A stretch of 31,594 bases of DNA from a virus (taxonomy: Duplodnaviria; Caudoviricetes). Shown in pieces: positions 422 through 17,612 of this stretch. The DNA is taken from positions 1 through 31,594 of the IMG/VR virus record IMGVR_UViG_3300021080_000004; one strand, 5' to 3'. Both the position numbers and the translations under genes were made by a program. The notes under the pieces were generated by a model, which was given only the letters and a program-made list of their open reading frames with translations, had not been told where the DNA came from and did no database searches. The stretch's first letter is position 1. Each line of letters starts with the position of its first letter.

Positions 422-603
422 AGCGGGCCCCGCACCTGAGGGAGAACTGGATCCTCCTGACCGACGCGCAGGCGCGGCGCCTCGTCCAGGGCGACGTGCC
501 GGCGAAGGTGCGCGAGACGCTGCGGCGGATGTTGGAGTGGCGGGCTGACGATCTGCGAACGTGGCATCGCGACGAACGCGGCGACGGCCGGAGGCGCGCA
601 TGA
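418..603 (+). CDS. hypothetical protein
   Basis: ATG at 418 overlaps the upstream stop; its stop overlaps the ATG at 600. Confidence 0.6.
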   Translation: MKRAPHLRENWILLTDAQARRLVQGDVPAKVRETLRRMLEWRADDLRTWHRDERGDGRRRA

Positions 604-2297
604 AGCTCCACCTGGCGAAGGATCTCGCGCTGCCGCTCGACGCCGTCACGCAGACGTTCGCGATCTTCGGAAAACGAGGAAGCGGTAAGAGTAATGGCGC
701 GACCGTGCTCGTCGAAGAGCTCCTGACCGCCAACCTCCCGATCGTCGTGCTCGACCCCGTCGATGCGTGGTGGGGCCTGAAAGCCAGCTTCAACGGCAAA
801 GGGCCCGGCTTCCCGGTCTACGTCTTCGGCGGGCCGCACGGCGACCTCCCGCTCGAATCGACCGCGGGCGCGCTCATCGCGGACATGGTGGCAAAGGAGC
901 ATCTCTCGGTCGTGCTGTCGATGAAGGAATGGGGCGTGGCGGAGCGCGCGCGCTTCGTGACCGACTTCGCGAAGCGCCTGCTCCAGGTGAACACCGAGCC
1001 GGTCCACATGGTGCTCGAGGAAGCCGACGCCTTCATTCCCCAGCGGCCGGCCAAGGGTGAAGAAGCGATGCTCGGCGCGATGGACCGGCTCGTGCGCTGG
1101 GGGCGGCAGAGCGGCGTCGGCTGCACGATCGTGACGCAACGTTCGGCCAAGGTGAACAAGGACGTCACCACGCAGGCCGAGACGCTCATCGCGTTCCGGA
1201 CGACCGGGCCGCAGGACCGCGAGGCGATCGATGCGTGGATCAAGTATCACGCGGGCGACGAGAAGCGCCAGGAGGTGCTCGAGACGTTGCCGACGTTGCC
1301 GAACGGGACGGCGTGGGTGTGGAGCCCGGAATGGCTCGGCGTGCTGAAGCAGGTCGCGGTTCGCCGGCGGCAGACGTTCGATTCCGCGGCGACGCCGAAG
1401 GTCGGACAGAAACCGGTGCAGCCGAAGAAGCTGGCGGCGGTCGACCTCGAGCGGCTGCGGACGCAGATGGCGGAGACGGTGGAGAAGGCGAAGGCGGACG
1501 ACCCGCGCGAGCTCCGGAAGACGATCGCGGAACTGCGGAAGGAATTGGCCGGCGCGCAACAAAAAGTTGCGGATCCGCAACAGAAAGTTGCGCGGCGCGT
1601 CGAGGTCCCGGTCCTGAAGGACAGCCAGGTCAAGCGCCTCGAAACCGTGCTCACGCGCATGACGGCGGAAGCGAACCGCCACGGCAAGGCGATGGCGTTG
1701 TTCTGGGGCAACCTCGACGAGGTCTCGCTCGCGCTGCTCAACGCGATGCGCTCGGTCGCGGCTGGGCCGACACCGCCGCCACCGGTGCCGCGGCCGCAGC
1801 TCGTGACGCCGGCACCCAGGCGGTCGCCGGTCGCTCGTGCCAATGCCGCCGACAACGGCTTCGACGGGACCGCCCTCCGCATCATCGACACCATCGCGAT
1901 GCTCAACATCCGCGGCATCGACCCGAACCGCGAGGCCGTCGCTCGTTGGTTAGGGATCCACCCCAACGGCGGCCGGTACCTGTCCGCGCTCGCGTGGCTG
2001 CGCGCGAACGGCCATCTCGACGGCTTCCGGTTGACACCCGCCGGCATGACGCACGCGCACGAGCCGACGACCGGGCCCCAGGGCGTGCGGATGGCGCTCA
2101 AGGACGGCACGGCGCTCCGGAGCTTCGAGGTGCTCGTCGCCATCTATCCGAAAGCCCTGACGCGCGAGGCACTCGCAGAGGCCCTCGGGATTCATCCAAA
2201 CGGCGGCCGCTTCCTGAGCGGGCTGGCGTGGTTGCGGCAGATGGGCGTGATCACGGAGCGGTCGCCGATCAGTGTTACCGAGGGCGCGCTGCAATGA
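600..2297 (+). CDS. HerA/FtsK-superfamily P-loop ATPase (DUF87-like) with coiled coil and two C-terminal winged-helix-like repeats
   Basis: Walker A GKRGSGKS, VVLDP, Walker B MVLEEAD, GRQSG, TQR motif; start at ATG 600 (ATGA overlap, GGAGG upstream). Confidence 0.85.
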   Translation: MKLHLAKDLALPLDAVTQTFAIFGKRGSGKSNGATVLVEELLTANLPIVVLDPVDAWWGLKASFNGKGPGFPVYVFGGPHGDLPLESTAGALIADMVAKEHLSVVLSMKEWGVAERARFVTDFAKRLLQVNTEPVHMVLEEADAFIPQRPAKGEEAMLGAMDRLVRWGRQSGVGCTIVTQRSAKVNKDVTTQAETLIAFRTTGPQDREAIDAWIKYHAGDEKRQEVLETLPTLPNGTAWVWSPEWLGVLKQVAVRRRQTFDSAATPKVGQKPVQPKKLAAVDLERLRTQMAETVEKAKADDPRELRKTIAELRKELAGAQQKVADPQQKVARRVEVPVLKDSQVKRLETVLTRMTAEANRHGKAMALFWGNLDEVSLALLNAMRSVAAGPTPPPPVPRPQLVTPAPRRSPVARANAADNGFDGTALRIIDTIAMLNIRGIDPNREAVARWLGIHPNGGRYLSALAWLRANGHLDGFRLTPAGMTHAHEPTTGPQGVRMALKDGTALRSFEVLVAIYPKALTREALAEALGIHPNGGRFLSGLAWLRQMGVITERSPISVTEGALQ

Positions 2298-4936: not shown

Positions 4937-5269
4937 TTGGGCGCATCTGATAGAGATTCTGAGGGACCCGTGTGGCGGGCCGAGCGCCGGGGCCCTGGTC
5001 GCGTCACGGACGTCCCCGACAACGTGCTCAAGGCACGCTTCTGTCCGCCTGACCTCGCCGTGGGTCAGACGTTCCGCGTGAAGGCGCTGGGTGAGGCCTT
5101 CTTCCAGCTTTCCAAGCTCGTCAAGTACAACAGCCCGCACTGTCGGGAGCGCTCGAACTCCTTCGCCCGCCTCGAGGAAGCGTTCGCCTGGGCCGAGAAG
5201 GCCATCGCGCAGGAACTGGCGCCCGACGGGGGGTCCCTGACCGCGGACGCCGAACCGGACCGTCCGTGA
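4937..5269 (+). CDS. Acb2/Tad1-like hairpin protein (candidate anti-defence nucleotide sponge)
   Basis: SPHCRERSNSFARLEEAFAWAEKAIA resembles the P-x-S/C-R-E-x-S-x-A-x-T-x-L-E-E-A-x-x-W-A-x-x-A-I-A pattern; start uncertain (TTG 4937 or GTG 4970). Confidence 0.55.
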   Translation: MGASDRDSEGPVWRAERRGPGRVTDVPDNVLKARFCPPDLAVGQTFRVKALGEAFFQLSKLVKYNSPHCRERSNSFARLEEAFAWAEKAIAQELAPDGGSLTADAEPDRP

Positions 5270-6399: not shown

Positions 6400-6584
6400 C
6401 GGACACGCCGTGGATTTCGATCATGCGGGCGTGCGAGGTGGCCGGCGTCTCGCGTCGCACGATTTACAACTGGCTGGCGAGTGGGAAGATCGAATACGTG
6501 CGGACCGCAGGCGGAGCCGTGCGGATTGATCCTGCGACGCTCTTTCGGCCGCCTGAGCAACCACGGGAATGGAGTCCGAAATGA
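6396..6584 (+). CDS. excisionase/MerR-like HTH (HTH_17-type) DNA-binding protein
   Basis: ISIMRACEVAGVSRRTIYNWLASGKIEYVRTAGGAVRI. Confidence 0.85.
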   Translation: MTDTPWISIMRACEVAGVSRRTIYNWLASGKIEYVRTAGGAVRIDPATLFRPPEQPREWSPK

Positions 6585-6841
6585 AGCGGTTCGCGCTGCT
6601 GTACCTCTTGGCGCTGAGCCTGTTGACGCCGGTGTACGAACAGCATCGGGACGAGCCGCCAGCTGGCTGGTTCTGCCAGCCGGCCGGGAAGGACGTGCTC
6701 CCCGACCACGTCTGCGCGTGCAAGCGCATGGACCATTCAGAGGATTGCGACGAACCGCCGATTGAGGACAGCACGTGTGCCGTGTTCTGTCATCCGAAGC
6801 ACTGCAAGTGCAAGATTATCTGTGATCCGAGGCAGCACTGA
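6581..6841 (+). CDS. small Cys-rich protein with N-terminal signal peptide
   Basis: MKRFALLYLLALSLL hydrophobic leader; 9 Cys in the C-terminal ~55 aa; ATGA overlap and GGAG RBS. Confidence 0.6.
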   Translation: MKRFALLYLLALSLLTPVYEQHRDEPPAGWFCQPAGKDVLPDHVCACKRMDHSEDCDEPPIEDSTCAVFCHPKHCKCKIICDPRQH

Positions 6842-6845
6842 GCGG

Positions 6846-6974
6846 ATGCGGCGCTGGCGGGCCCGGCATCGCGCCGCCGACCGCTGTTGGTGTGGCCGAG
6901 TCCGTGAGCCACGGTGGAAATGTTGTCGGCGGTGTCGCCTGGCGCAGAACGCGCGGTACCGAGCCAGGCAATGA
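6846..6974 (+). CDS. small Arg/Cys-rich protein
   Basis: 42 aa MRRWRARHRAADRCWCG...CCRRC; no clear RBS. Confidence 0.35.
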   Translation: MRRWRARHRAADRCWCGRVREPRWKCCRRCRLAQNARYRARQ

Positions 6975-7058
6975 CGGTGGCTCCCTTAATGGTCCAAGCC
7001 GACTTGGAGCATCGCGTGAACACGATACAGGGGGCGAAATCATTGCCTGGCTTGATAC
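6956..7058. other. candidate structured RNA / multi-stem inverted repeat
   Basis: Perfect 13-bp inverted repeat AGCCAGGCAATGA (6962-6974) / TCATTGCCTGGCT (7040-7052) enclosing GCTCCCT/AGGGGGC, TCCAAG-ccga-CTTGGA and ATCG..CGAT stems. Confidence 0.5.
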
Positions 7059-7077
7059 GGGTTGAGACGGGTCGACC

Positions 7078-7254
7078 ATGAAGGCCCCGCTCCCGATCTG
7101 CCCGTTCTGTTTTCAACGCGGGCGACACGCCTCGGCGCGGGAGTGTCTGAACGCCCTGACGCGTGACGTCAGGCGTCCGTATGAGCGCAGCCGACGCGCC
7201 CACGCCCGCGCCGCCCAACGCGCCGCGAAGCTGAAAGGAGACCTGCAGCCATGA
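7078..7254 (+). CDS. small Zn-knuckle-like protein (not in ORF track)
   Basis: 58 aa MKAPLPICPFCFQRGRHASARECL... with C-x2-C-x5-H-x5-C; its stop overlaps the next ATG. Confidence 0.5.
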   Translation: MKAPLPICPFCFQRGRHASARECLNALTRDVRRPYERSRRAHARAAQRAAKLKGDLQP

Positions 7255-7664
7255 TGACGCGACGGGGATTCCTCGGACGGATTGCCGCCGGCGTGGCGGC
7301 GGCCGCGGTGGCCGGGACGGAGTTCGACCTCGAGCGGGCGCTCTGGGTGCCGGGGGCGAAGACGATTTTCCTACCAGAGCCGGTCGTGGCGCCGACGCCC
7401 GCGATGATCGCGGCCATCACGGCCCCGAATCCGTCGCTGTTCGGTGGGCACGTGTGGACGCTGACCAACCTGAATGGCGAGTACGACTTTGATCATAAGT
7501 GGCACCTGATCGGTGGTCGGCGCTGCGGGAAGGTGCTGACGCAAGAACAACTCGAAGACGCACAGGTCGCGTTGTTCCCTGGAGTGCCGGATTCGTTCTT
7601 CGCCCAGCGCCTCGACATCAGGCGCACTGAGCCCGGCACGTACTACGGACGAAGGAGGGGCTGA
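7251..7664 (+). CDS. twin-arginine (Tat) signal-containing protein
   Basis: TRRGFLG followed by hydrophobic IAAGVAAAAVA; AAAGGAG RBS; coupled to tatA by TGATG. Confidence 0.75.
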   Translation: MMTRRGFLGRIAAGVAAAAVAGTEFDLERALWVPGAKTIFLPEPVVAPTPAMIAAITAPNPSLFGGHVWTLTNLNGEYDFDHKWHLIGGRRCGKVLTQEQLEDAQVALFPGVPDSFFAQRLDIRRTEPGTYYGRRRG

Positions 7665-7846
7665 TGTTCGGACCACTCGGACTCCCAGAGCTGTGCATCA
7701 TCGCAGCGGTCGCGCTCCTGATCTTCGGGCCGCGCCAGCTCCCGAAGATGGGCAAAGCGCTCGGCGAGACGATCCGCGAAGTGCGCGGCGTCGCGAAAGA
7801 ACTCCATGGAGAGGATGACGATGACGTCAGACAGCAAGGTCATTGA
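7664..7846 (+). CDS. tatA: twin-arginine translocase TatA/TatE family subunit
   Basis: MFGPLGLPELCIIAAVALLIFGPRQLPKMGKALGETIREVR: TM helix, FG hinge, amphipathic helix, acidic tail; AAGGAGG RBS. Confidence 0.9.
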   Translation: MFGPLGLPELCIIAAVALLIFGPRQLPKMGKALGETIREVRGVAKELHGEDDDDVRQQGH

Positions 7847-8024
7847 CGCCGGCCGCCGACTCGCCACGATCGTCCGCACGCTGGCGCTGACCGACCACGA
7901 GCGGGACGCCGCGTTCACCATCGCCAAAGAACTGCTCTACCTGGAATATCGGGTCCGCAGCGACGCGGAGTTCGCCGAACGCGTGAAGACACCGGCGAAT
8001 GGCGACGGCGAGGACGATGAATGA
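7821..8024 (+). CDS. hypothetical protein
   Basis: MTSDSKVIDAGRRL...; GAGGA upstream; stop overlaps the next ATG. Confidence 0.55.
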   Translation: MTSDSKVIDAGRRLATIVRTLALTDHERDAAFTIAKELLYLEYRVRSDAEFAERVKTPANGDGEDDE

Positions 8025-8137
8025 TTGACCAGAGCATCGTCGAGGCCGCCCAACACGTCACGTGGCCGGGCGCGTTCGTCCTGGCGGTGCTCATCATCGT
8101 CGTCGGGTGGGTGCTCGTTCGCTTCTTCGAATCCTAA
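8021..8137 (+). CDS. 38-aa single-pass membrane protein (not in ORF track)
   Basis: MIDQSIVEAAQHVTWPGAFVLAVLIIVVGWVLVRFFES*; ATGA overlap, GAGGA RBS. Confidence 0.65.
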   Translation: MIDQSIVEAAQHVTWPGAFVLAVLIIVVGWVLVRFFES

Positions 8138-8185
8138 CCGGGCGTTTGCGCCTGGTCGTCTCCGAAGCGCACGCTGGACTCGTTC

Positions 8186-8767
8186 ATGACCAAGCGAGCG
8201 AGGAAGAAGAAGAAACGCCCGGCGAAGCCATCCCGCGCCATCGGTCGCCCGATCATCACCGTCGACACCCCCCTCACCGATCGCCAGCAGCGCTTCGTCG
8301 CGGAATTTCTCATCGACTTGAACGCCACGCAGGCCATCATGCGCGCCCTGCCGGGCAGTCGCGCGAGCTCGGCCACATCCCGAGGGTCTCAACTCCTCGC
8401 CCTACCCAACGTCGCTCTTGCCATCGCCGCCGGCAAGAACGCGCAGCTCGCGAAGTGCGACCTGTCGGCGACTCGCATCCTCGAAGAAGCCCGACGGATC
8501 GCGCTCCACGACCCGCGCACCTTCTACGACCAGCACGGCAACCTCAAACCCGTGCATCTCCTGAGCGAAGAGTCCGCGGCCGCGCTCGCGTCGATGGAGA
8601 TCATCAAGAAGAACGTCACCTCTGGCGACGGGTTCGTCGACACCATCCACAAGGTCAAGACCTGGCCGAAGGTCGACGCGCTGAAGCTCCTGTTCGAGCA
8701 TCTCGGGCTCCTCGAGCAGCGCATCAAGGTTGTCGGTGACATTGAGTACCGGTGGCGGACCGAATAG
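8186..8767 (+). CDS. terS: terminase small subunit
   Basis: LTDRQQRFVAEFLIDLNATQA N-terminal motif; K..ALKLL..HLG C-terminus; directly upstream of TerL. Confidence 0.88.
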   Translation: MTKRARKKKKRPAKPSRAIGRPIITVDTPLTDRQQRFVAEFLIDLNATQAIMRALPGSRASSATSRGSQLLALPNVALAIAAGKNAQLAKCDLSATRILEEARRIALHDPRTFYDQHGNLKPVHLLSEESAAALASMEIIKKNVTSGDGFVDTIHKVKTWPKVDALKLLFEHLGLLEQRIKVVGDIEYRWRTE

Positions 8768-10167
8768 TCACTCTGCCGTACCTCCCACGTCGGTGGGCCG
8801 GGCCCTTTCATGCCTCGTTCGCGCGGTGGTCCGCGCTCGTGCTCCATCGCCGTCTCGGGAAGACCACGGCGACCGTCAATCATCACATCCGCGCCGCGAT
8901 GAACAACGAGTGGGAGACGCAGCGCCTGCGGCATCTGCTCCCCAACCTGTCGGATGCGGACCTGAAGCCGCTGCTCCGCAACCGCTGGTACGGGCACATC
9001 ATGCCCAGCTACAAGCAGGCGAAGCTGATGGCGTGGGACATGCTGAAGTTCCACGCGCGCGACGTCGAGGGCGCGAAGCCCAACGAATCCGAGCTGCTGA
9101 TCAAGTTCGCCAACGGCTCGCGCGTGCAACTGTTCGGCGCCGACAAACCCGACCGGCTCCGCGGCTCCGGCTTCAGCGGGCTGTCCCTGGACGAGTTCAG
9201 CCAGCAGCCGCGCAACATCTTCTCCGAGGTCCTCTCGAAGTCCCTCGCGGACCACGTCGGCTACGCCATCTTCAGCGGGACGATCAAGGGCAAGGACCAC
9301 CTCTACGCGACCTTCCAGGCCGCGAAGAACGACCCGGAGTGGTTCACGCTCTGGCAGGACATCGACCGATCCCTCGTCACCGAGAACGAGCTGACTGTCA
9401 CGGTCCTGACCAAAGCGATGGCGGACGACCGGGCGCTCATCGCCAACGGCCTGATGACGCAGGCGGAGTTCGACCAGGAGTGGTACCTCAGTCCCGAAGC
9501 CGCGATCAAAGGGTCGTACTATGGGCAGGAGATGGCGGCGGCGAGGAAAGAGGGCCGCATCACGTCCGTCCCCTACGATCCCGCCCTGCCCGTCGATACC
9601 GATTGGGACCTCGGCATGGCCGACAACACGAGCATCTGGTTCAGTCAGAGCCTGCGGTCGGGCGAGGTGCGCCTGATCGACTTCCTCGAGGCCTCGGGCG
9701 AGGGCTTCCCGTTCTATGCGCGCAAGCTCCAGGAGAAGGGCTACGTCTATGGGAAGCATTGGGGCCCGCATGACATCGTGGTCCGCGAGCTCGGGTCGGG
9801 CCGCAGCCGGCAGGAGTCCGCGGCGGCGCTCGGGATCAAGTTCGAGATCACGCCGCGGCTGCACCAGGGGTCGGCGGAAGAAATCAGCGAGGGCATTCAC
9901 GCCGTCCGGCTGCTGTTGCCGCGCTGCTGGTTCGATGAGAAGAAGACCGAAGAGGGACGTACGGCGTTGCTGAACTACCGGCGCTCGTTCAACGCGTCGC
10001 TGAACGAGTTTCAGGCGACACCCGTTCATAATTTTGCGTCCCATGCGAGCGACGCGTTTCGTGGGCTCGCGGTTCGGCAGAAACCGCCGAAGGAGAAGCG
10101 CCCCGACGAAGGCTACGGCGGACGTTCGTCCGACACCAGTACGGCGCTGAGTTGGATGGGAGGCTAG
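8752..10167 (+). CDS. terL: terminase large subunit
   Basis: HRRLGKT Walker A, LRG...LSLDE Walker B, WDLG..D RNase H-type nuclease motif, H..SHASDAFR. Confidence 0.93.
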   Translation: MADRIVTLPYLPRRWAGPFHASFARWSALVLHRRLGKTTATVNHHIRAAMNNEWETQRLRHLLPNLSDADLKPLLRNRWYGHIMPSYKQAKLMAWDMLKFHARDVEGAKPNESELLIKFANGSRVQLFGADKPDRLRGSGFSGLSLDEFSQQPRNIFSEVLSKSLADHVGYAIFSGTIKGKDHLYATFQAAKNDPEWFTLWQDIDRSLVTENELTVTVLTKAMADDRALIANGLMTQAEFDQEWYLSPEAAIKGSYYGQEMAAARKEGRITSVPYDPALPVDTDWDLGMADNTSIWFSQSLRSGEVRLIDFLEASGEGFPFYARKLQEKGYVYGKHWGPHDIVVRELGSGRSRQESAAALGIKFEITPRLHQGSAEEISEGIHAVRLLLPRCWFDEKKTEEGRTALLNYRRSFNASLNEFQATPVHNFASHASDAFRGLAVRQKPPKEKRPDEGYGGRSSDTSTALSWMGG

Positions 10168-13810: not shown

Positions 13811-13855
13811 GTTGGTTTCGCGATTGCATCGTGGTCTGGTCATTGGAGGCCAGTG

Positions 13856-14383
13856 ATGTCGAGTAAACCCAAAACGCCGCTACGAGCGATGACCGTGGAG
13901 GAGGCTGCCTACATAGCAGGTTTCTTCGACGGCGAGGGTTGTCTCACGATGCGCCGATCGAATCGTCATTCCCGCGGTAAAGCAGGCTCCGGCGTGGCGT
14001 CGGTTCACTATCGACTCGCGCTGGACTTTGCGAATCGTCATCTTGGTGTTCTCCGCTGGATTCAACAGTTCACCGGAGGAGCGATCTATTCGAAATATGG
14101 GCCCGCGAGGTCTTCAAGGTGGGCACCGGCCTTCGCGCTCATCATGTGGAACAAGGCGGACATCGAGCGCCTGTTACGAGCCATTCAGCCGTACGTGAAA
14201 GTAAAAACCGAACAAGTTGCCCTCGGGCTCGACTTTCTTTCTCTTCCGCCAGTCCGCGTGTCGTTTCACGCGCGCGGCAAAACCTGGCCGAGACGGGTGT
14301 CGATTCAGGAAGACCTCGATGTGCGGGAAGAGTACAAGCAGCGGCTGAGCGCCTTTAATCAACGAGGGCACCGTGCCAGCTAA
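13856..14383 (+). CDS. LAGLIDADG homing endonuclease, free-standing
   Basis: EEAAYIAGFFDGEGCL motif, ...IQPYVKVK.EQ; visibly lower GC than flanks; GGAGG RBS. Confidence 0.88.
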   Translation: MSSKPKTPLRAMTVEEAAYIAGFFDGEGCLTMRRSNRHSRGKAGSGVASVHYRLALDFANRHLGVLRWIQQFTGGAIYSKYGPARSSRWAPAFALIMWNKADIERLLRAIQPYVKVKTEQVALGLDFLSLPPVRVSFHARGKTWPRRVSIQEDLDVREEYKQRLSAFNQRGHRAS

Positions 14384-14582
14384 ATCAAAGGCGCAACAGA
14401 GACTCTTTGCTGCCGCCGACCACGGCGCCACGTTCCCGAAGGCGGTGAACCTGCGCCAGTCCCTCAGCCACGCCCAACTCCACGACTTCGCCGCAGGCTC
14501 GATGGCAGGGAAGCCGGAGCGCGTCGCGCACCCGCACCGGAACCTTGGGACATTCCTGCATCCGCCGAAGAGGGGCAAGTAG
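14373..14582 (+). CDS. small basic phage protein (DUF3008-like)
   Basis: MPAKSKAQQR...LS..QLHDFA...KPE pattern. Confidence 0.65.
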   Translation: MPAKSKAQQRLFAAADHGATFPKAVNLRQSLSHAQLHDFAAGSMAGKPERVAHPHRNLGTFLHPPKRGK

Positions 14583-14872
14583 TGCTGTCGCGCCGCACGT
14601 TCTTCGGCAGCCTGCTCGCGCCGCTCGTGGCGCGTTTCCTGCCGGCACCCGCCGCGCCGCCGTCGGTCGCGTTCCATCCCGACGCGTTCTCGCTCGCGTT
14701 CCCGCAGATTCCCGAGCAGTACCGCACCGGCGGGATGAGCGTGCCGGTCCGCTTCGACGTGCTCTACGGCTGGGGGAGGGTGCGGCCGGAGATGGCGTGT
14801 CGCATCAGTGGCGGGACCGGCTGGGCCGATCCGTGCGTCGTGACGTCGGCCCAAATGAACAACCGGCGATGA
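14582..14872 (+). CDS. Tat-signal protein containing capsid-protein-like motifs
   Basis: SRRTFF Tat motif; RFDVLYGWGRVRPEMACRI aligns with coat C-terminus RLDVLYGYAALRPELAVRI (12/19 identical). Confidence 0.7.
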   Translation: MLSRRTFFGSLLAPLVARFLPAPAAPPSVAFHPDAFSLAFPQIPEQYRTGGMSVPVRFDVLYGWGRVRPEMACRISGGTGWADPCVVTSAQMNNRR

Positions 14873-15321: not shown

Positions 15322-16365
15322 ATGTCTGAACCAGTCAGCGTCACGGAAGGCGACCTCACGATCACGTCGACCACGTCGACGGAGGCGCAGATCCGCGAGT
15401 CGCTCAAGCCGACCCTGAAGGAAGAGGCGGCCGCGGCCGCGAAGGTCCCGGCGGAGCCGCCAGTCACCGAAACCCCCGACGAGAAGCCCGACCTCTCTGA
15501 GGCCGGTCGTACGCTCGCCGCCGGCAAGAAGGGCACCGCCGCCACCCGCAAGGACCAGATCCAAGCCGAGATCAACGCGCTTGTGAAGCAGAAGGGCGAC
15601 ACCGTGCGCGAGCACGACGCCTTGGTCGCGCAGCGCGATGCGCTGAAGCGCGAACTCGACGAGCTCGCCGCGAAGAAGCCCGCCGCCGACGTGAAGCCCG
15701 TGGCCGAACCTCCAGTCGCCGCGGCCGCCGCCGCTGCGACCGCCAAACCGAAGCTCGCGGACTTCGATGACATGGACGCCTGGTCTGACGCCGTCGTCGA
15801 CTGGACGAAAGCCGAACTCAAACGCGAACACCTCGAGGCCGCCGCTCAGCAGACCGCTGCCGAGCAGGCGGCTCGTGCCGCTGCGGACAAGAAGACCGTC
15901 GAGGACAACGACACCCGCGCCGCGCAGGCCCTCTTCAAGGAACACCAGACGCGCATCGAAGAAGCCAAAGCGCAGCACGCCGATTTTGACGAGGGCCTGC
16001 GCAGCGTCGACCACCTCGCCCTCACGCCCGCCATGAACTACGAAATCGTCCACTCCGAGCTCGGGGGCGAGATCGCCTACTACCTCGGCCAGCACCACGA
16101 CGAGTTCGCCGCCATCGCTGCGCTCCCGACGCCGGACGCGCAACGCAAAGCCATGAACAAGCTCGAAGCGCGGATTGAGGCTGCTCGTGTTCCTGCCAGC
16201 GGCCCGGCCTCTCCCGCTCGACCCATCACCCGAACCGCTCCACCAGTGAAGCCGCTGGGCGGTTCAGGCAACGCCTCTCCCGACACTGATCCCGCAGACA
16301 TCCCGTTCGGGCCGGACTACGTCCGGCGCATGAACGCGCGTGAACGCGAGCTCCAACGTCGCTGA
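15322..16365 (+). CDS. capsid scaffolding protein
   Basis: Ala/Glu-rich coiled coil, PKLADFDD, IAYYLGQH, ITRTAPPVKPL; immediately upstream of the coat gene. Confidence 0.8.
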   Translation: MSEPVSVTEGDLTITSTTSTEAQIRESLKPTLKEEAAAAAKVPAEPPVTETPDEKPDLSEAGRTLAAGKKGTAATRKDQIQAEINALVKQKGDTVREHDALVAQRDALKRELDELAAKKPAADVKPVAEPPVAAAAAAATAKPKLADFDDMDAWSDAVVDWTKAELKREHLEAAAQQTAAEQAARAAADKKTVEDNDTRAAQALFKEHQTRIEEAKAQHADFDEGLRSVDHLALTPAMNYEIVHSELGGEIAYYLGQHHDEFAAIAALPTPDAQRKAMNKLEARIEAARVPASGPASPARPITRTAPPVKPLGGSGNASPDTDPADIPFGPDYVRRMNARERELQRR

Positions 16366-16385: not shown

Positions 16386-17612
16386 ATGCCTAATTCCATC
16401 GTGACCCCGAGTTGGGTCACTAAAGAAGTCGCCCGAATCCTCGTCAACGAGCTCCACTTCGCGAACACGATCAACCGCGACTACGACGACTCCTACGTCG
16501 TCGCCGGCGCGAAGGTCGGCTACACCGTCTCGGCCCGTCTGCCACAGCGCTACGTCGTCAACAAGGGCCAGGCGCTGAACCCGCAAGCGGTCAGCGACCA
16601 GGTTGTGCCGATCACCCTCACCGACCAGGCCAACATCGGGATCGAGTTCTCGACCGCCTCGTTGACGATGGAGATCGACAACTACCGCGAGCGGTACATC
16701 AGACCCGCGGTCGCGGCGATTATCAACCAGATCGACTTCGACGGCCTCACGCGCATGACGCCGCTGGTCGCACAGTCCGTCGGCGTACCCGGCGTCGTCC
16801 CGAACCTCAACCTCACGTACCTGCAAGCAGGCGTGAAGCTCTCCAATGCGTCGGTCCCGATGGACGGCCGCATCGGGATGCTCAACGCGATGATGCAGGC
16901 GACGCTGGTCAACGCCAACGCCGCCGTCTTCAATCCCGCCGCGCAGATCAGTGAGCAGTACCGGTCCGGTCAGTTCGGCGCGCAGGCGCTGGGCGTCAGC
17001 CGCTGGTACATGGACCAGAACGTCTACACGCACACCGTCGGTCCGCTCGGCGGGACCCCGACCGTCAACGGTGCGAACCAGGTCGGCGCCTCGATCATCA
17101 GCCAGGCCTGGACCGCTGCGGCGGCCAACCGGCTGAAGCGCGGGGACGTGATTCAGTTCGCGGGCGTTTTCGGCGTGAATCCGCAGAACCGGGTCTCGAC
17201 CGGGCAACTGCAGGACTTCGTGGTCACCGCGGACGTGAGCTCGGACGGCGCCGGCGCGGCGACCATTCCGATCTCGCCCGCGATCATCACCGCGGGCGCG
17301 TATCAGACCGTGACGGTGTCGCCGGCCTCCGGCGCGGCGATCACGATCTTCGGCAGCGCGTCGGCGTACGCCAGTCTCGCGACTCCACAGGGGCTCATCT
17401 ACAACCCCGACTTCGCGGCGCTCGTCATGGCGGATCTCGATCTGCCGCAGGGCGTGTGGGCCGCGGAGCGGGTGTCGAGCAAGCAGCTCGGCATCTCGGT
17501 GCGGTTCATCAAGGACTACAACATCATGACCGACCAGTCGCCCGCGCGACTGGATGTGTTGTACGGCTACGCGGCCTTGCGGCCGGAGCTCGCCGTTCGG
17601 ATCGCGTCGTAA
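16386..17612 (+). CDS. major capsid protein, P22 gp5-like
   Basis: N.L.F...INRDYD, KVG.TV..RLP, MDQNV..HT.G, I-domain LKRGDVIQFAGV..VNP, RLDVLYG...RPE.AVR. Confidence 0.92.
   Translation: MPNSIVTPSWVTKEVARILVNELHFANTINRDYDDSYVVAGAKVGYTVSARLPQRYVVNKGQALNPQAVSDQVVPITLTDQANIGIEFSTASLTMEIDNYRERYIRPAVAAIINQIDFDGLTRMTPLVAQSVGVPGVVPNLNLTYLQAGVKLSNASVPMDGRIGMLNAMMQATLVNANAAVFNPAAQISEQYRSGQFGAQALGVSRWYMDQNVYTHTVGPLGGTPTVNGANQVGASIISQAWTAAAANRLKRGDVIQFAGVFGVNPQNRVSTGQLQDFVVTADVSSDGAGAATIPISPAIITAGAYQTVTVSPASGAAITIFGSASAYASLATPQGLIYNPDFAALVMADLDLPQGVWAAERVSSKQLGISVRFIKDYNIMTDQSPARLDVLYGYAALRPELAVRIAS

What the first reader, a model, noticed from the sequence alone, without database searches (positions are those of the whole stretch)
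7251..7846. Phage-encoded TatA coupled to a twin-arginine substrate
Seen: a TRRGFLG-signal protein whose stop overlaps the start of a clear TatA/E homologue, just upstream of terminase. No tatC is in the window, and a second Tat-signal gene lies at 14582. Known: TatA oligomers form the membrane-weakening translocation element and need host TatC. Inference: the phage boosts, redirects or jams host Tat export. Alternatively it uses TatA as a membrane-permeabilising factor at the position where lambdoid phages keep lysis genes. The usual F of the amphipathic helix (IREFK) is V here (IREVR), which could change its activity.
Basis: partly seen in the sequence, partly recalled or inferred. Interest (0 to 1): 0.8.

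Follow-up and report, generated by a model that had tools for sequence, protein, structure and literature searches.

The report
Phage TatA paired with export-tagged cargo
An uncultured phage carries its own copy of tatA, the pore-forming gene of the bacterial system that exports folded proteins, overlapping a gene with that system's export signal; the pairing recurs in most relatives, so these phages likely borrow the host's export machine to move their own small proteins, many of which resemble pieces of the phage shell, an arrangement I found in no paper.

Summary
Observation confirmed. 7664-7846 is a TatA/B-family gene (PF02416, 57 bits) whose start overlaps the stop of a twin-arginine-leader gene (7251-7664) in a P22-like phage with no tatC.

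It is not a sporadic capture. It belongs to a phage-type group of short TatA proteins (at least 120 clusters) under purifying selection. In 19 of 28 distinct loci a twin-arginine (RR) gene abuts tatA, on either side; none holds tatC. The RR leader defines a far larger phage family that usually lacks TatA (0 of 32 records). A third of its best hits carry capsid-protein pieces. RR proteins beside TatA are larger (median 162 vs 96 aa), and one TatA-linked cargo family is predicted to have a shrunken capsid fold.

Best reading (0.55): the phage supplies the high-copy Tat subunit so that host TatC can handle its larger cargo, probably capsid decoys. Jamming and receptor rewiring remain open; lysis is unlikely. 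The F-to-V change is a minority variant (3 of 40). This window's own cargo has no assigned fold, and nothing is tested functionally.

The scan noted this pairing before on other DNA (e1-9782320).

The parts
7251..7664 (+). RR-leader protein, 137 aa: TRRGFLG, Ala-rich h-region, conserved D-x-E-R-x-L-W-V-P-G-x-K-T-I-F-L-P motif (res. 26-42), then ~95 aa cargo of unassigned fold
   Evidence: TIGR01409 above cut-off; family alignments; no Pfam or PHROG match; model pTM 0.24
7652..7666 (+). Shine-Dalgarno AAGGAGG and TGATG stop/start overlap (likely translational coupling)
   Evidence: Sequence; similar purine-rich SD in all 11 loci printed that have the RR gene upstream
7664..7846 (+). Phage-type TatA/B-family protein, 60 aa: short TM helix with E9, FGP hinge, amphipathic helix, VR at the FK site, short acidic tail
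   Evidence: PF02416 and NF011430; alignments; tree; dN/dS
14582..14872 (+). Second RR gene, 96 aa, weaker leader, carrying a copy of the coat C-terminal strand
   Evidence: PHROG 283 res. 53-78, E 9e-5; 59% over 22 aa to own coat; no TIGR01409 match
16386..17612 (+). P22-like coat protein, source type of the copied pieces (context)
   Evidence: PF11651, PHROG 283
8186..10167 (+). Terminase small and large subunits (context)
   Evidence: PF03592, PF03237

Best explanation
The two overlapping genes belong to a recurring phage pairing of a short TatA with twin-arginine-tagged proteins, and the phage TatA likely works with the host's TatC to export or membrane-anchor the phage's larger tagged proteins, many of which probably act as capsid decoys. 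Shown: family identity, gene coupling, recurrence, purifying selection, no tatC in the loci, capsid-derived tails in the family, larger cargo where TatA is present. Inferred step 1 (about 0.8): the leader docks on host TatC like a signal peptide. Inferred step 2 (about 0.65 given step 1): phage TatA tops up the subunit needed in large excess, or escorts its cognate cargo, and this matters only for larger or folded cargo. Inferred step 3 (about 0.35): the cargo mimics capsid surfaces to bind capsid-recognising proteins (host sensors or a rival's assembly factors) and holds them at the membrane or carries them out. The cargo of this window's adjacent gene is not shown to be capsid-like; its second RR gene is.
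For: Linkage: 19 of 28 distinct loci have an RR-type gene within 105 bp and 21 within 300 bp; without the window 18 of 27 against a null of 0.036 (loci are not phylogenetically independent; 3 of the 19 rest on cut or RR-less genes). All 5 other IMG/VR records with this TatA carry RR leaders, and L137 has five RR genes in a row. No TatC in 28 loci versus 44 of 105 cellular control loci, nor in 6 whole records. TatA dN/dS is 0.09-0.37 in 7 pairs; E9, F21, G22, P23 are invariant in 40 of 40. Asymmetry: 0 of 32 RR-leader records found by the leader alone have TatA, 9 of them at least 90% complete. Cargo size: median 162 aa (22 genes) vs 96 aa (35 genes), per locus 164 vs 99, P 1e-5; for the main leader type only, 147 (11 genes) vs 97 (150 database hits), P 3e-4. 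Capsid pieces: 50 of 150 tails, 0 of 150 reversed; 16 of 67 locus tails, 0 reversed. A cargo family in 6 of the 28 TatA loci gives a model (pTM 0.53) whose top 31 structural matches are all capsids or encapsulins, best P22 capsid Z 6.1, rmsd 5.3, 126 aligned. Literature: TatA is in roughly 20-50-fold excess, binds substrates without TatBC, and has substrate-preferring paralogues (PMC13673990 section 8); Tat co-exports signal-less partners (PMC4273604 abstract).
Against: No functional data and no known host. 6 of 28 loci show no RR gene (five are 1.5-13.5 kb; the sixth has two elsewhere in its record). The FK motif reads FR in most of the group and VR here; E. coli TatA F39A is inactive and E. 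coli TatB has LR at this site (PMC13673990 section 9), so pore function is not assured. The leaders are short, with about 2 residues before RR and 15 uncharged residues, followed by a conserved acidic motif, which could mean tight binding rather than export. The window's adjacent cargo has no coat match (profile comparison probability 1.8%). Sequence-detectable coat pieces are no commoner in TatA loci (5 of 31) than in others (11 of 36). The capsid-fold match is Z 6.1 on a model of mean pLDDT 55, and its Foldseek E-values are 0.3-0.5. Size differences may follow phage lineage.
Confidence: 0.55

Rival explanations
1. Jamming: the RR leader is a tight, poorly transported ligand of TatBC and the phage TatA is a dominant-negative subunit; together they shut down host Tat export, for example of periplasmic defence or envelope proteins.
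For: Short leader with a near-invariant motif after the h-region and RR-to-D spacing of 17 in 140 of 150 hits. In the TatBC-MdoD structure the c-region helix keeps contact with a TatB helix (PMC13323110 passage). F-site changes to V, L or M in 8 of 40.
Against: F is kept in 32 of 40. A jammer needs neither selected tails (dN/dS 0.08 and 0.17 in the two closest pairs), nor capsid-like tails, nor bigger cargo when TatA is present. [quoted passage not shown]
Confidence: 0.17
2. Receptor rewiring: the phage protein acts like TatB, taking TatA/B sites on host TatC so that the receptor prefers phage leaders; it is not a pore subunit.
For: FR/VR/LR at the FK site resembles TatB. TatB helices clamp the h-region, and TatA and TatB compete for the same sites (PMC13323110). 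Leaders beside TatA are longer (RR-to-D median 20, n 16, vs 17, n 31; P 5e-4).
Against: Length (median 55 aa) and model scores favour TatA or bifunctional TatA. The nearest cellular relative is a short tatA directly before tatC. E9 does not discriminate.
Confidence: 0.13
3. Lysis or depolarisation: TatA oligomers, triggered by RR proteins, weaken the membrane like a holin.
For: TatA assemblies destabilise membranes, and incompletely folded Tat fusions caused growth defects. Position near terS here and in L039 and L135. No lysis gene was recognised in the window.
Against: Position varies: between terminase halves (L137), between terL and portal (L019 directly before portal; L047 after terL), among recombination genes (L041, L138). 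No holin or endolysin family among 100 neighbours. Most RR phages lack TatA. The record is only about 81% complete, so lysis genes may lie outside it.
Confidence: 0.07
4. No functional link: tatA and RR genes are both accessory genes that gather at the same insertion hotspots.
For: Both often sit among small accessory genes near terminase; 6 of 28 loci lack an RR gene.
Against: Direct abutment or overlap in 19 of 28 loci on both sides with different cargo families; matching biochemistry; purifying selection.
Confidence: 0.05

Closest known systems
Cellular TatA/TatE and bifunctional TatA (PF02416; B. subtilis TatAd 2L16, plastid Tha4 7B7O, E. coli TatA)
   Same: TM helix with polar residue, FGP hinge, amphipathic helix; profile matches at E 2e-17 to 1e-7; stand-alone tatA away from tatC resembles TatE.
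   Different: Phage-borne, no tatC, median 55 aa vs 91 aa for the Acidobacteriota-sample proteins, RQLPK for RKLPE, FR/VR for FK, coupled to phage cargo genes. Nearest cellular copy is a Solibacteraceae tatA-tatC pair, weakly supported.
TatB
   Same: Non-FK motif, Glu in the TM helix.
   Different: Much shorter; TIGR01410 below cut-off.
Twin-arginine signal peptides (TIGR01409) and hitchhiker export (HybOC, PaoABC)
   Same: Z-R-R-x-F-L motif and uncharged h-region; helix then short helix, as in bound MdoD.
   Different: Very short n-region, near-invariant acidic and aromatic motif after the h-region, tails derived from capsid protein; export not shown.
Phage morons and counter-defence decoys (Ocr, sponge proteins)
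   Same: Small accessory genes in phage operons; mimicry as a strategy (PMC12409349 passages).
   Different: I found none that uses a captured translocase subunit or export-tagged capsid pieces.

Membership tests
TatA/B/E family (PF02416) | Profile match above curated cut-off | tested here: met
   57.1 bits vs 21; NF011430 67.3 vs 62
TatA/B/E family (PF02416) | N-terminal TM helix with polar residue, FG hinge, amphipathic helix | tested here: met
   E9, F21, G22, P23 invariant in 40 of 40; aligned to solved structures; hydropathy 2.1 over res. 5-23
TatA (pore subunit) | [quoted passage not shown] | tested here: not met
   VR here; FR in most of the group; motif described
TatA vs TatB | Subtype model above cut-off | tested here: inconclusive
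   tatAE 46/53.9, tatB 39.8/56.5
TatA (pore subunit) | Oligomerises and complements tatA/tatE loss with TatC | not testable with these tools
   Needs experiment
Complete Tat system | tatC encoded with tatA | tested here: not met
   0 of 28 loci; 0 of 6 incomplete records; a host copy would be needed
Tat substrate (7251) | Z-R-R-x-hydrophobic-hydrophobic motif and h-region | tested here: met
   TRRGFL; 13 uncharged residues; TIGR01409 above cut-off
Tat substrate (7251) | Signal peptidase I site | tested here: inconclusive
   A-x-A-type sites exist, e.g. A19-V20-A21, but the region is Ala-rich
Tat substrate (7251) | RR- and TatC-dependent translocation | not testable with these tools
   Needs experiment
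Tat substrate (14582) | Signal model match | tested here: inconclusive
   SRRTFF motif present, no TIGR01409 hit at E 0.1
Holin-endolysin cassette | Linked muralytic enzyme and fixed lysis position | tested here: inconclusive
   No lysis family hit among 53 window ORFs and 100 neighbours; position varies; records incomplete
HK97-fold capsid mimic (cargo of 7251) | Sequence or fold likeness to capsid protein | tested here: inconclusive
   No sequence match; model too poor to search. Met for 14582 by sequence, and suggested by fold for the L046 family

The most novel reading that the evidence does not exclude
A phage deportation system: export-tagged capsid mimics act as bait for capsid-sensing immune proteins or a competitor's assembly factors, and host TatC, enlarged by phage TatA, carries the bound complex out of the cytoplasm by the hitchhiker route. 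It would be a virus-encoded protein-translocase subunit serving counter-defence by relocalisation.
Probability: 0.2. Interest if true: 0.93.

Novelty: categorically new. Interest (0 to 1): 0.76.

Why it matters
I found no description of a phage-encoded Tat subunit in the papers searched. If functional, it shows phages reshaping a host translocase for folded proteins, and it gives a handle on a family of over a thousand uncharacterised phage proteins (1,299 clusters at E 1e-10). It also offers natural TatA variants (FR, VR, LR, MR at the FK site) paired with their own leaders, which bear on open questions of Tat mechanism: what separates TatA from TatB, and whether TatA supply scales with cargo size. 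The key tests are simple reporter and complementation assays in laboratory E. coli or B. subtilis.

Tried and rejected
(1) Terminase Walker-A mimic in the 7251 cargo (GGRRCGK): not conserved in the homologous tails; rejected. (2) TatA in cultured phages: the only 4 hits among 50,697 records are unannotated Listeria entries at 33% identity; the one inspected is marked unverified and has tatC about 210 bp downstream, so likely host DNA. The leader has no match there. (3) Host assignment: no phage-type TatA among 67 loci from 185,579 genomes (pattern-limited); best 80.5 bits in 301 genomes of the Solibacteraceae genome's phylum; leader not found in 401 of them. Host unknown. (4) Structure of the 7251 protein: pTM 0.24, not searched; Atlas hits all under 0.9; no usable Atlas hit for the L046 cargo. 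(5) Profile comparison of the L046 family with coat proteins: 18 columns, E 0.04, not significant; no member found in viral contigs. (6) Expression: one RNA run gave patchy contigs at low depth, with zero in the bin over most of 7251; no evidence either way. (7) No sigma-70 promoter or terminator match in 6500-8300. (9) The 150-row tree did not resolve the group: 37 of 43 rows in one branch at support 85, six in a polytomy. (10) The geNomad paper's 'tata' hits are TATATA motifs.

Full report
OBSERVATION. The window is an uncultured P22-like phage fragment: terS, terL, portal, scaffold, coat and gp4/gp10-like genes match Pfam or PHROG. The record is about 81% complete. ORF 7251-7664 starts MMTRRGFLG and passes TIGR01409. 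ORF 7664-7846 is PF02416 (E 1e-15). They overlap by one base, with a strong SD. Two small ORFs separate tatA from terS. No tatC is present. V40 corresponds to E. coli F39. The gene at 14582 has an RR motif but no signal-model match; its tail matches the coat C-terminus.

A PHAGE-TYPE TATA GROUP. Scans of viral and metagenome contigs gave 28 distinct loci, the window counted once. I dropped copies of the window (L001, L002, L018, L022), repeats of one contig or gene (L020, L021, L025, L033, L035, L043, L048, L050, L206) and the loci scoring under 75 bits (L049, L051, L052, L054-L067). The 28 score 85-103 bits on the group profile and the best cellular protein 79.5. This is partly circular: 25 of the 28 (or their duplicates) built the profile; the three that did not score 88-91. 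A protein search lists 120 clusters at 95 bits or more, 49-96 aa long, nearly all singletons, without context. Terminase, portal or coat genes lie in 8 of the loci scanned, and other phage-type genes in 4 more; L136 holds a coat gene. The 1-2 kb contigs are not shown directly to be phage. No locus has TatC, against 44 of 105 cellular controls. A 64-row, 51-column tree puts all 28 in one group (SH-aLRT 91) with three intruders from unassigned contigs; holding the 28 together is not rejected (p-AU 0.74); the sister is Solibacteraceae tatA, which precedes tatC. A 150-row tree was less resolved. One old capture from an Acidobacteriota-like donor is therefore plausible but unproven. dN/dS is 0.09-0.37 in 7 pairs. 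At the F39 site the 40 aligned rows have F 32, V 3, M 3, L 2, followed by R in 38.

LINKAGE. An RR-type gene lies within 105 bp of tatA in 19 of 28 loci (11 upstream, 8 downstream) and within 300 bp in 21. Three of the 19 rest on 5'-cut genes or on the leader motif without RR. One more has an RR gene 2.6 kb away. Six have none in the locus; one of these has two elsewhere in its record. All five other IMG/VR records with this TatA carry RR leaders. L137 has five RR genes in a row behind tatA, between two halves of a split terminase gene. The P value of 3e-20 ignores relatedness, but the swapped order and the different cargo families argue against a single inherited junction.

THE RR FAMILY. The leader consensus is M-N-R-R-x-F-L, 15 uncharged residues from RR, then D-P-E-R-L-L-W-V-P-G-x-K-T-I-F-L-P. 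A profile finds 3,510 clusters at E 0.001 and 1,299 at 1e-10; weak hits may include ordinary Tat signals. It was not found in 103 cellular control loci, 401 genomes or cultured phages. Most carriers lack TatA: 3 of 36 leader loci are TatA loci, one being the window's copy, and 0 of 32 other records have it. Tails vary. 50 of the best 150 match a P22-like coat profile, from the N-arm, middle, insertion domain and C-terminus, against 0 of 150 reversed. Six tails match the coat gene in their own locus. Tails are under purifying selection in the two closest pairs (0.08, 0.17) and weakly or unclearly in distant ones (0.15-0.86, two saturated). PHROG scans of 148 hits found five coat matches, one terminase match and one match to unknown families.

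WHAT TATA ADDS. RR proteins in TatA loci are longer: 162 vs 96 aa, or 164 vs 99 per locus. The TatA-less set was found by one leader pattern, so I repeated the test on 11 TatA-locus genes of the main leader type against the 150 database hits of unknown TatA status: 147 vs 97 aa, P 3e-4. Their leaders are about one helical turn longer. A 230-280 aa cargo family occurs in 6 of the 28 loci. Its model (pTM 0.53) returns P22 procapsid at Foldseek ranks 1-3 and 5 with non-significant E-values, and capsids or encapsulins in all of the top 31 rows of a wide search, best Z 6.1, rmsd 5.3, 126 residues aligned. That these share the HK97 fold is my own knowledge. Z under 8 alone is weak; the uniform list is the evidence. 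The window's adjacent cargo is a different type. It shares a segment with two database proteins and has no assigned fold.

MECHANISM. TatA is the subunit needed in large excess, can bind substrates without TatBC, and has substrate-preferring paralogues (PMC13673990, sections 6-9 and passages read; PMC4361764, abstract). Capturing tatA alone therefore fits a need for more capacity or an escort, with TatC borrowed from the host. This is inference. The leader's helix-plus-short-helix layout resembles bound MdoD (PMC13323110, passages and section 9 part 1). Capsid proteins trigger some defences (bioRxiv 10.64898/2026.06.04.730250 and PMC12409349, passages and reference titles), and Tat carries signal-less partners (PMC4273604, abstract and introduction). 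Hence the decoy reading, and its bold form, bait-and-export. Jamming (0.17), TatB-like rewiring (0.13), lysis (0.07) and chance clustering (0.05) are set out under rivals. No binding, export or expression was shown.

NOVELTY. Nine literature searches were run; for all papers not named above I saw listings only. None showed a phage-encoded TatA or this family. The 2026 Tat review mentions phages in four places, none about this. The library lacks most subscription papers, and supplements were not read; annotation tables there could list viral tatA. Three genomes's sample are unpublished; they enter only the tally. Earlier AI notes of this scan report the same pairing and the capsid-fragment family on other DNA. 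I had noted the coat pieces before that look-up and treat those notes as agreement, not support. One of them names Planctomycetota as the closest cellular source, a phylum I did not sample. New here are the locus counts, the asymmetry, the cargo-size link and the fold result.

VERDICT. Real, recurrent, selected and apparently undescribed; function untested. Interest 0.76.

Noticed in passing
window 4937-5269 (+): Weak match to the Acb2/Tad1 sponge hairpin (PF24729, E 4e-5, 24.1 bits, under the cut-off of 27): a candidate counter-defence gene 2 kb upstream.
   Followed up: no
window 6569-6841 (+): 90-aa protein with a Sec-type signal and a Cys/His-rich body; no family match. Signal-bearing small proteins also flank tatA in L036, L037 and L137.
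   Followed up: no
window 8021-8137 (+): 38-aa single-TM protein between tatA and terS (hydropathy 2.7); no family match.
   Followed up: partly
window 561-2297 (+): HerA/DUF87-type ATPase; a relative also lies near tatA in L135.
   Followed up: no
window 13853-14383 (+): LAGLIDADG endonuclease between portal and the second RR gene.
   Followed up: no
L137 3428-10826: Terminase large subunit split in two, with tatA, five RR genes and other small genes between the halves; N-half-only genes also precede the cassette in L036 and L045.
   Followed up: partly
L203 231-578: One RR tail joins the coat N-terminal helix directly to the coat C-terminal strand.
   Followed up: partly
L176, L178, L180, L181, L184, L191: A tail family that does not hit the P22-like coat profile and may copy the N-terminus of another capsid type (my recollection, untested).
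   Followed up: no
RR family: RR-to-D spacing clusters at 14, 17-18 and 20-22, steps of about one helical turn.
   Followed up: partly
L135, L137, L041: DUF3307 membrane protein (PHROG 2470) occurs in three TatA loci.
   Followed up: no
window 15995-16001: A 19-kb contig of run X1 differs from the window by two substitutions and a compensating indel inside the scaffold gene: possible assembly error or strain difference.
   Followed up: no
OR846728.1 (L214): Unverified 'Listeria phage' record holds a tatA-tatC pair and is probably host DNA.
   Followed up: yes
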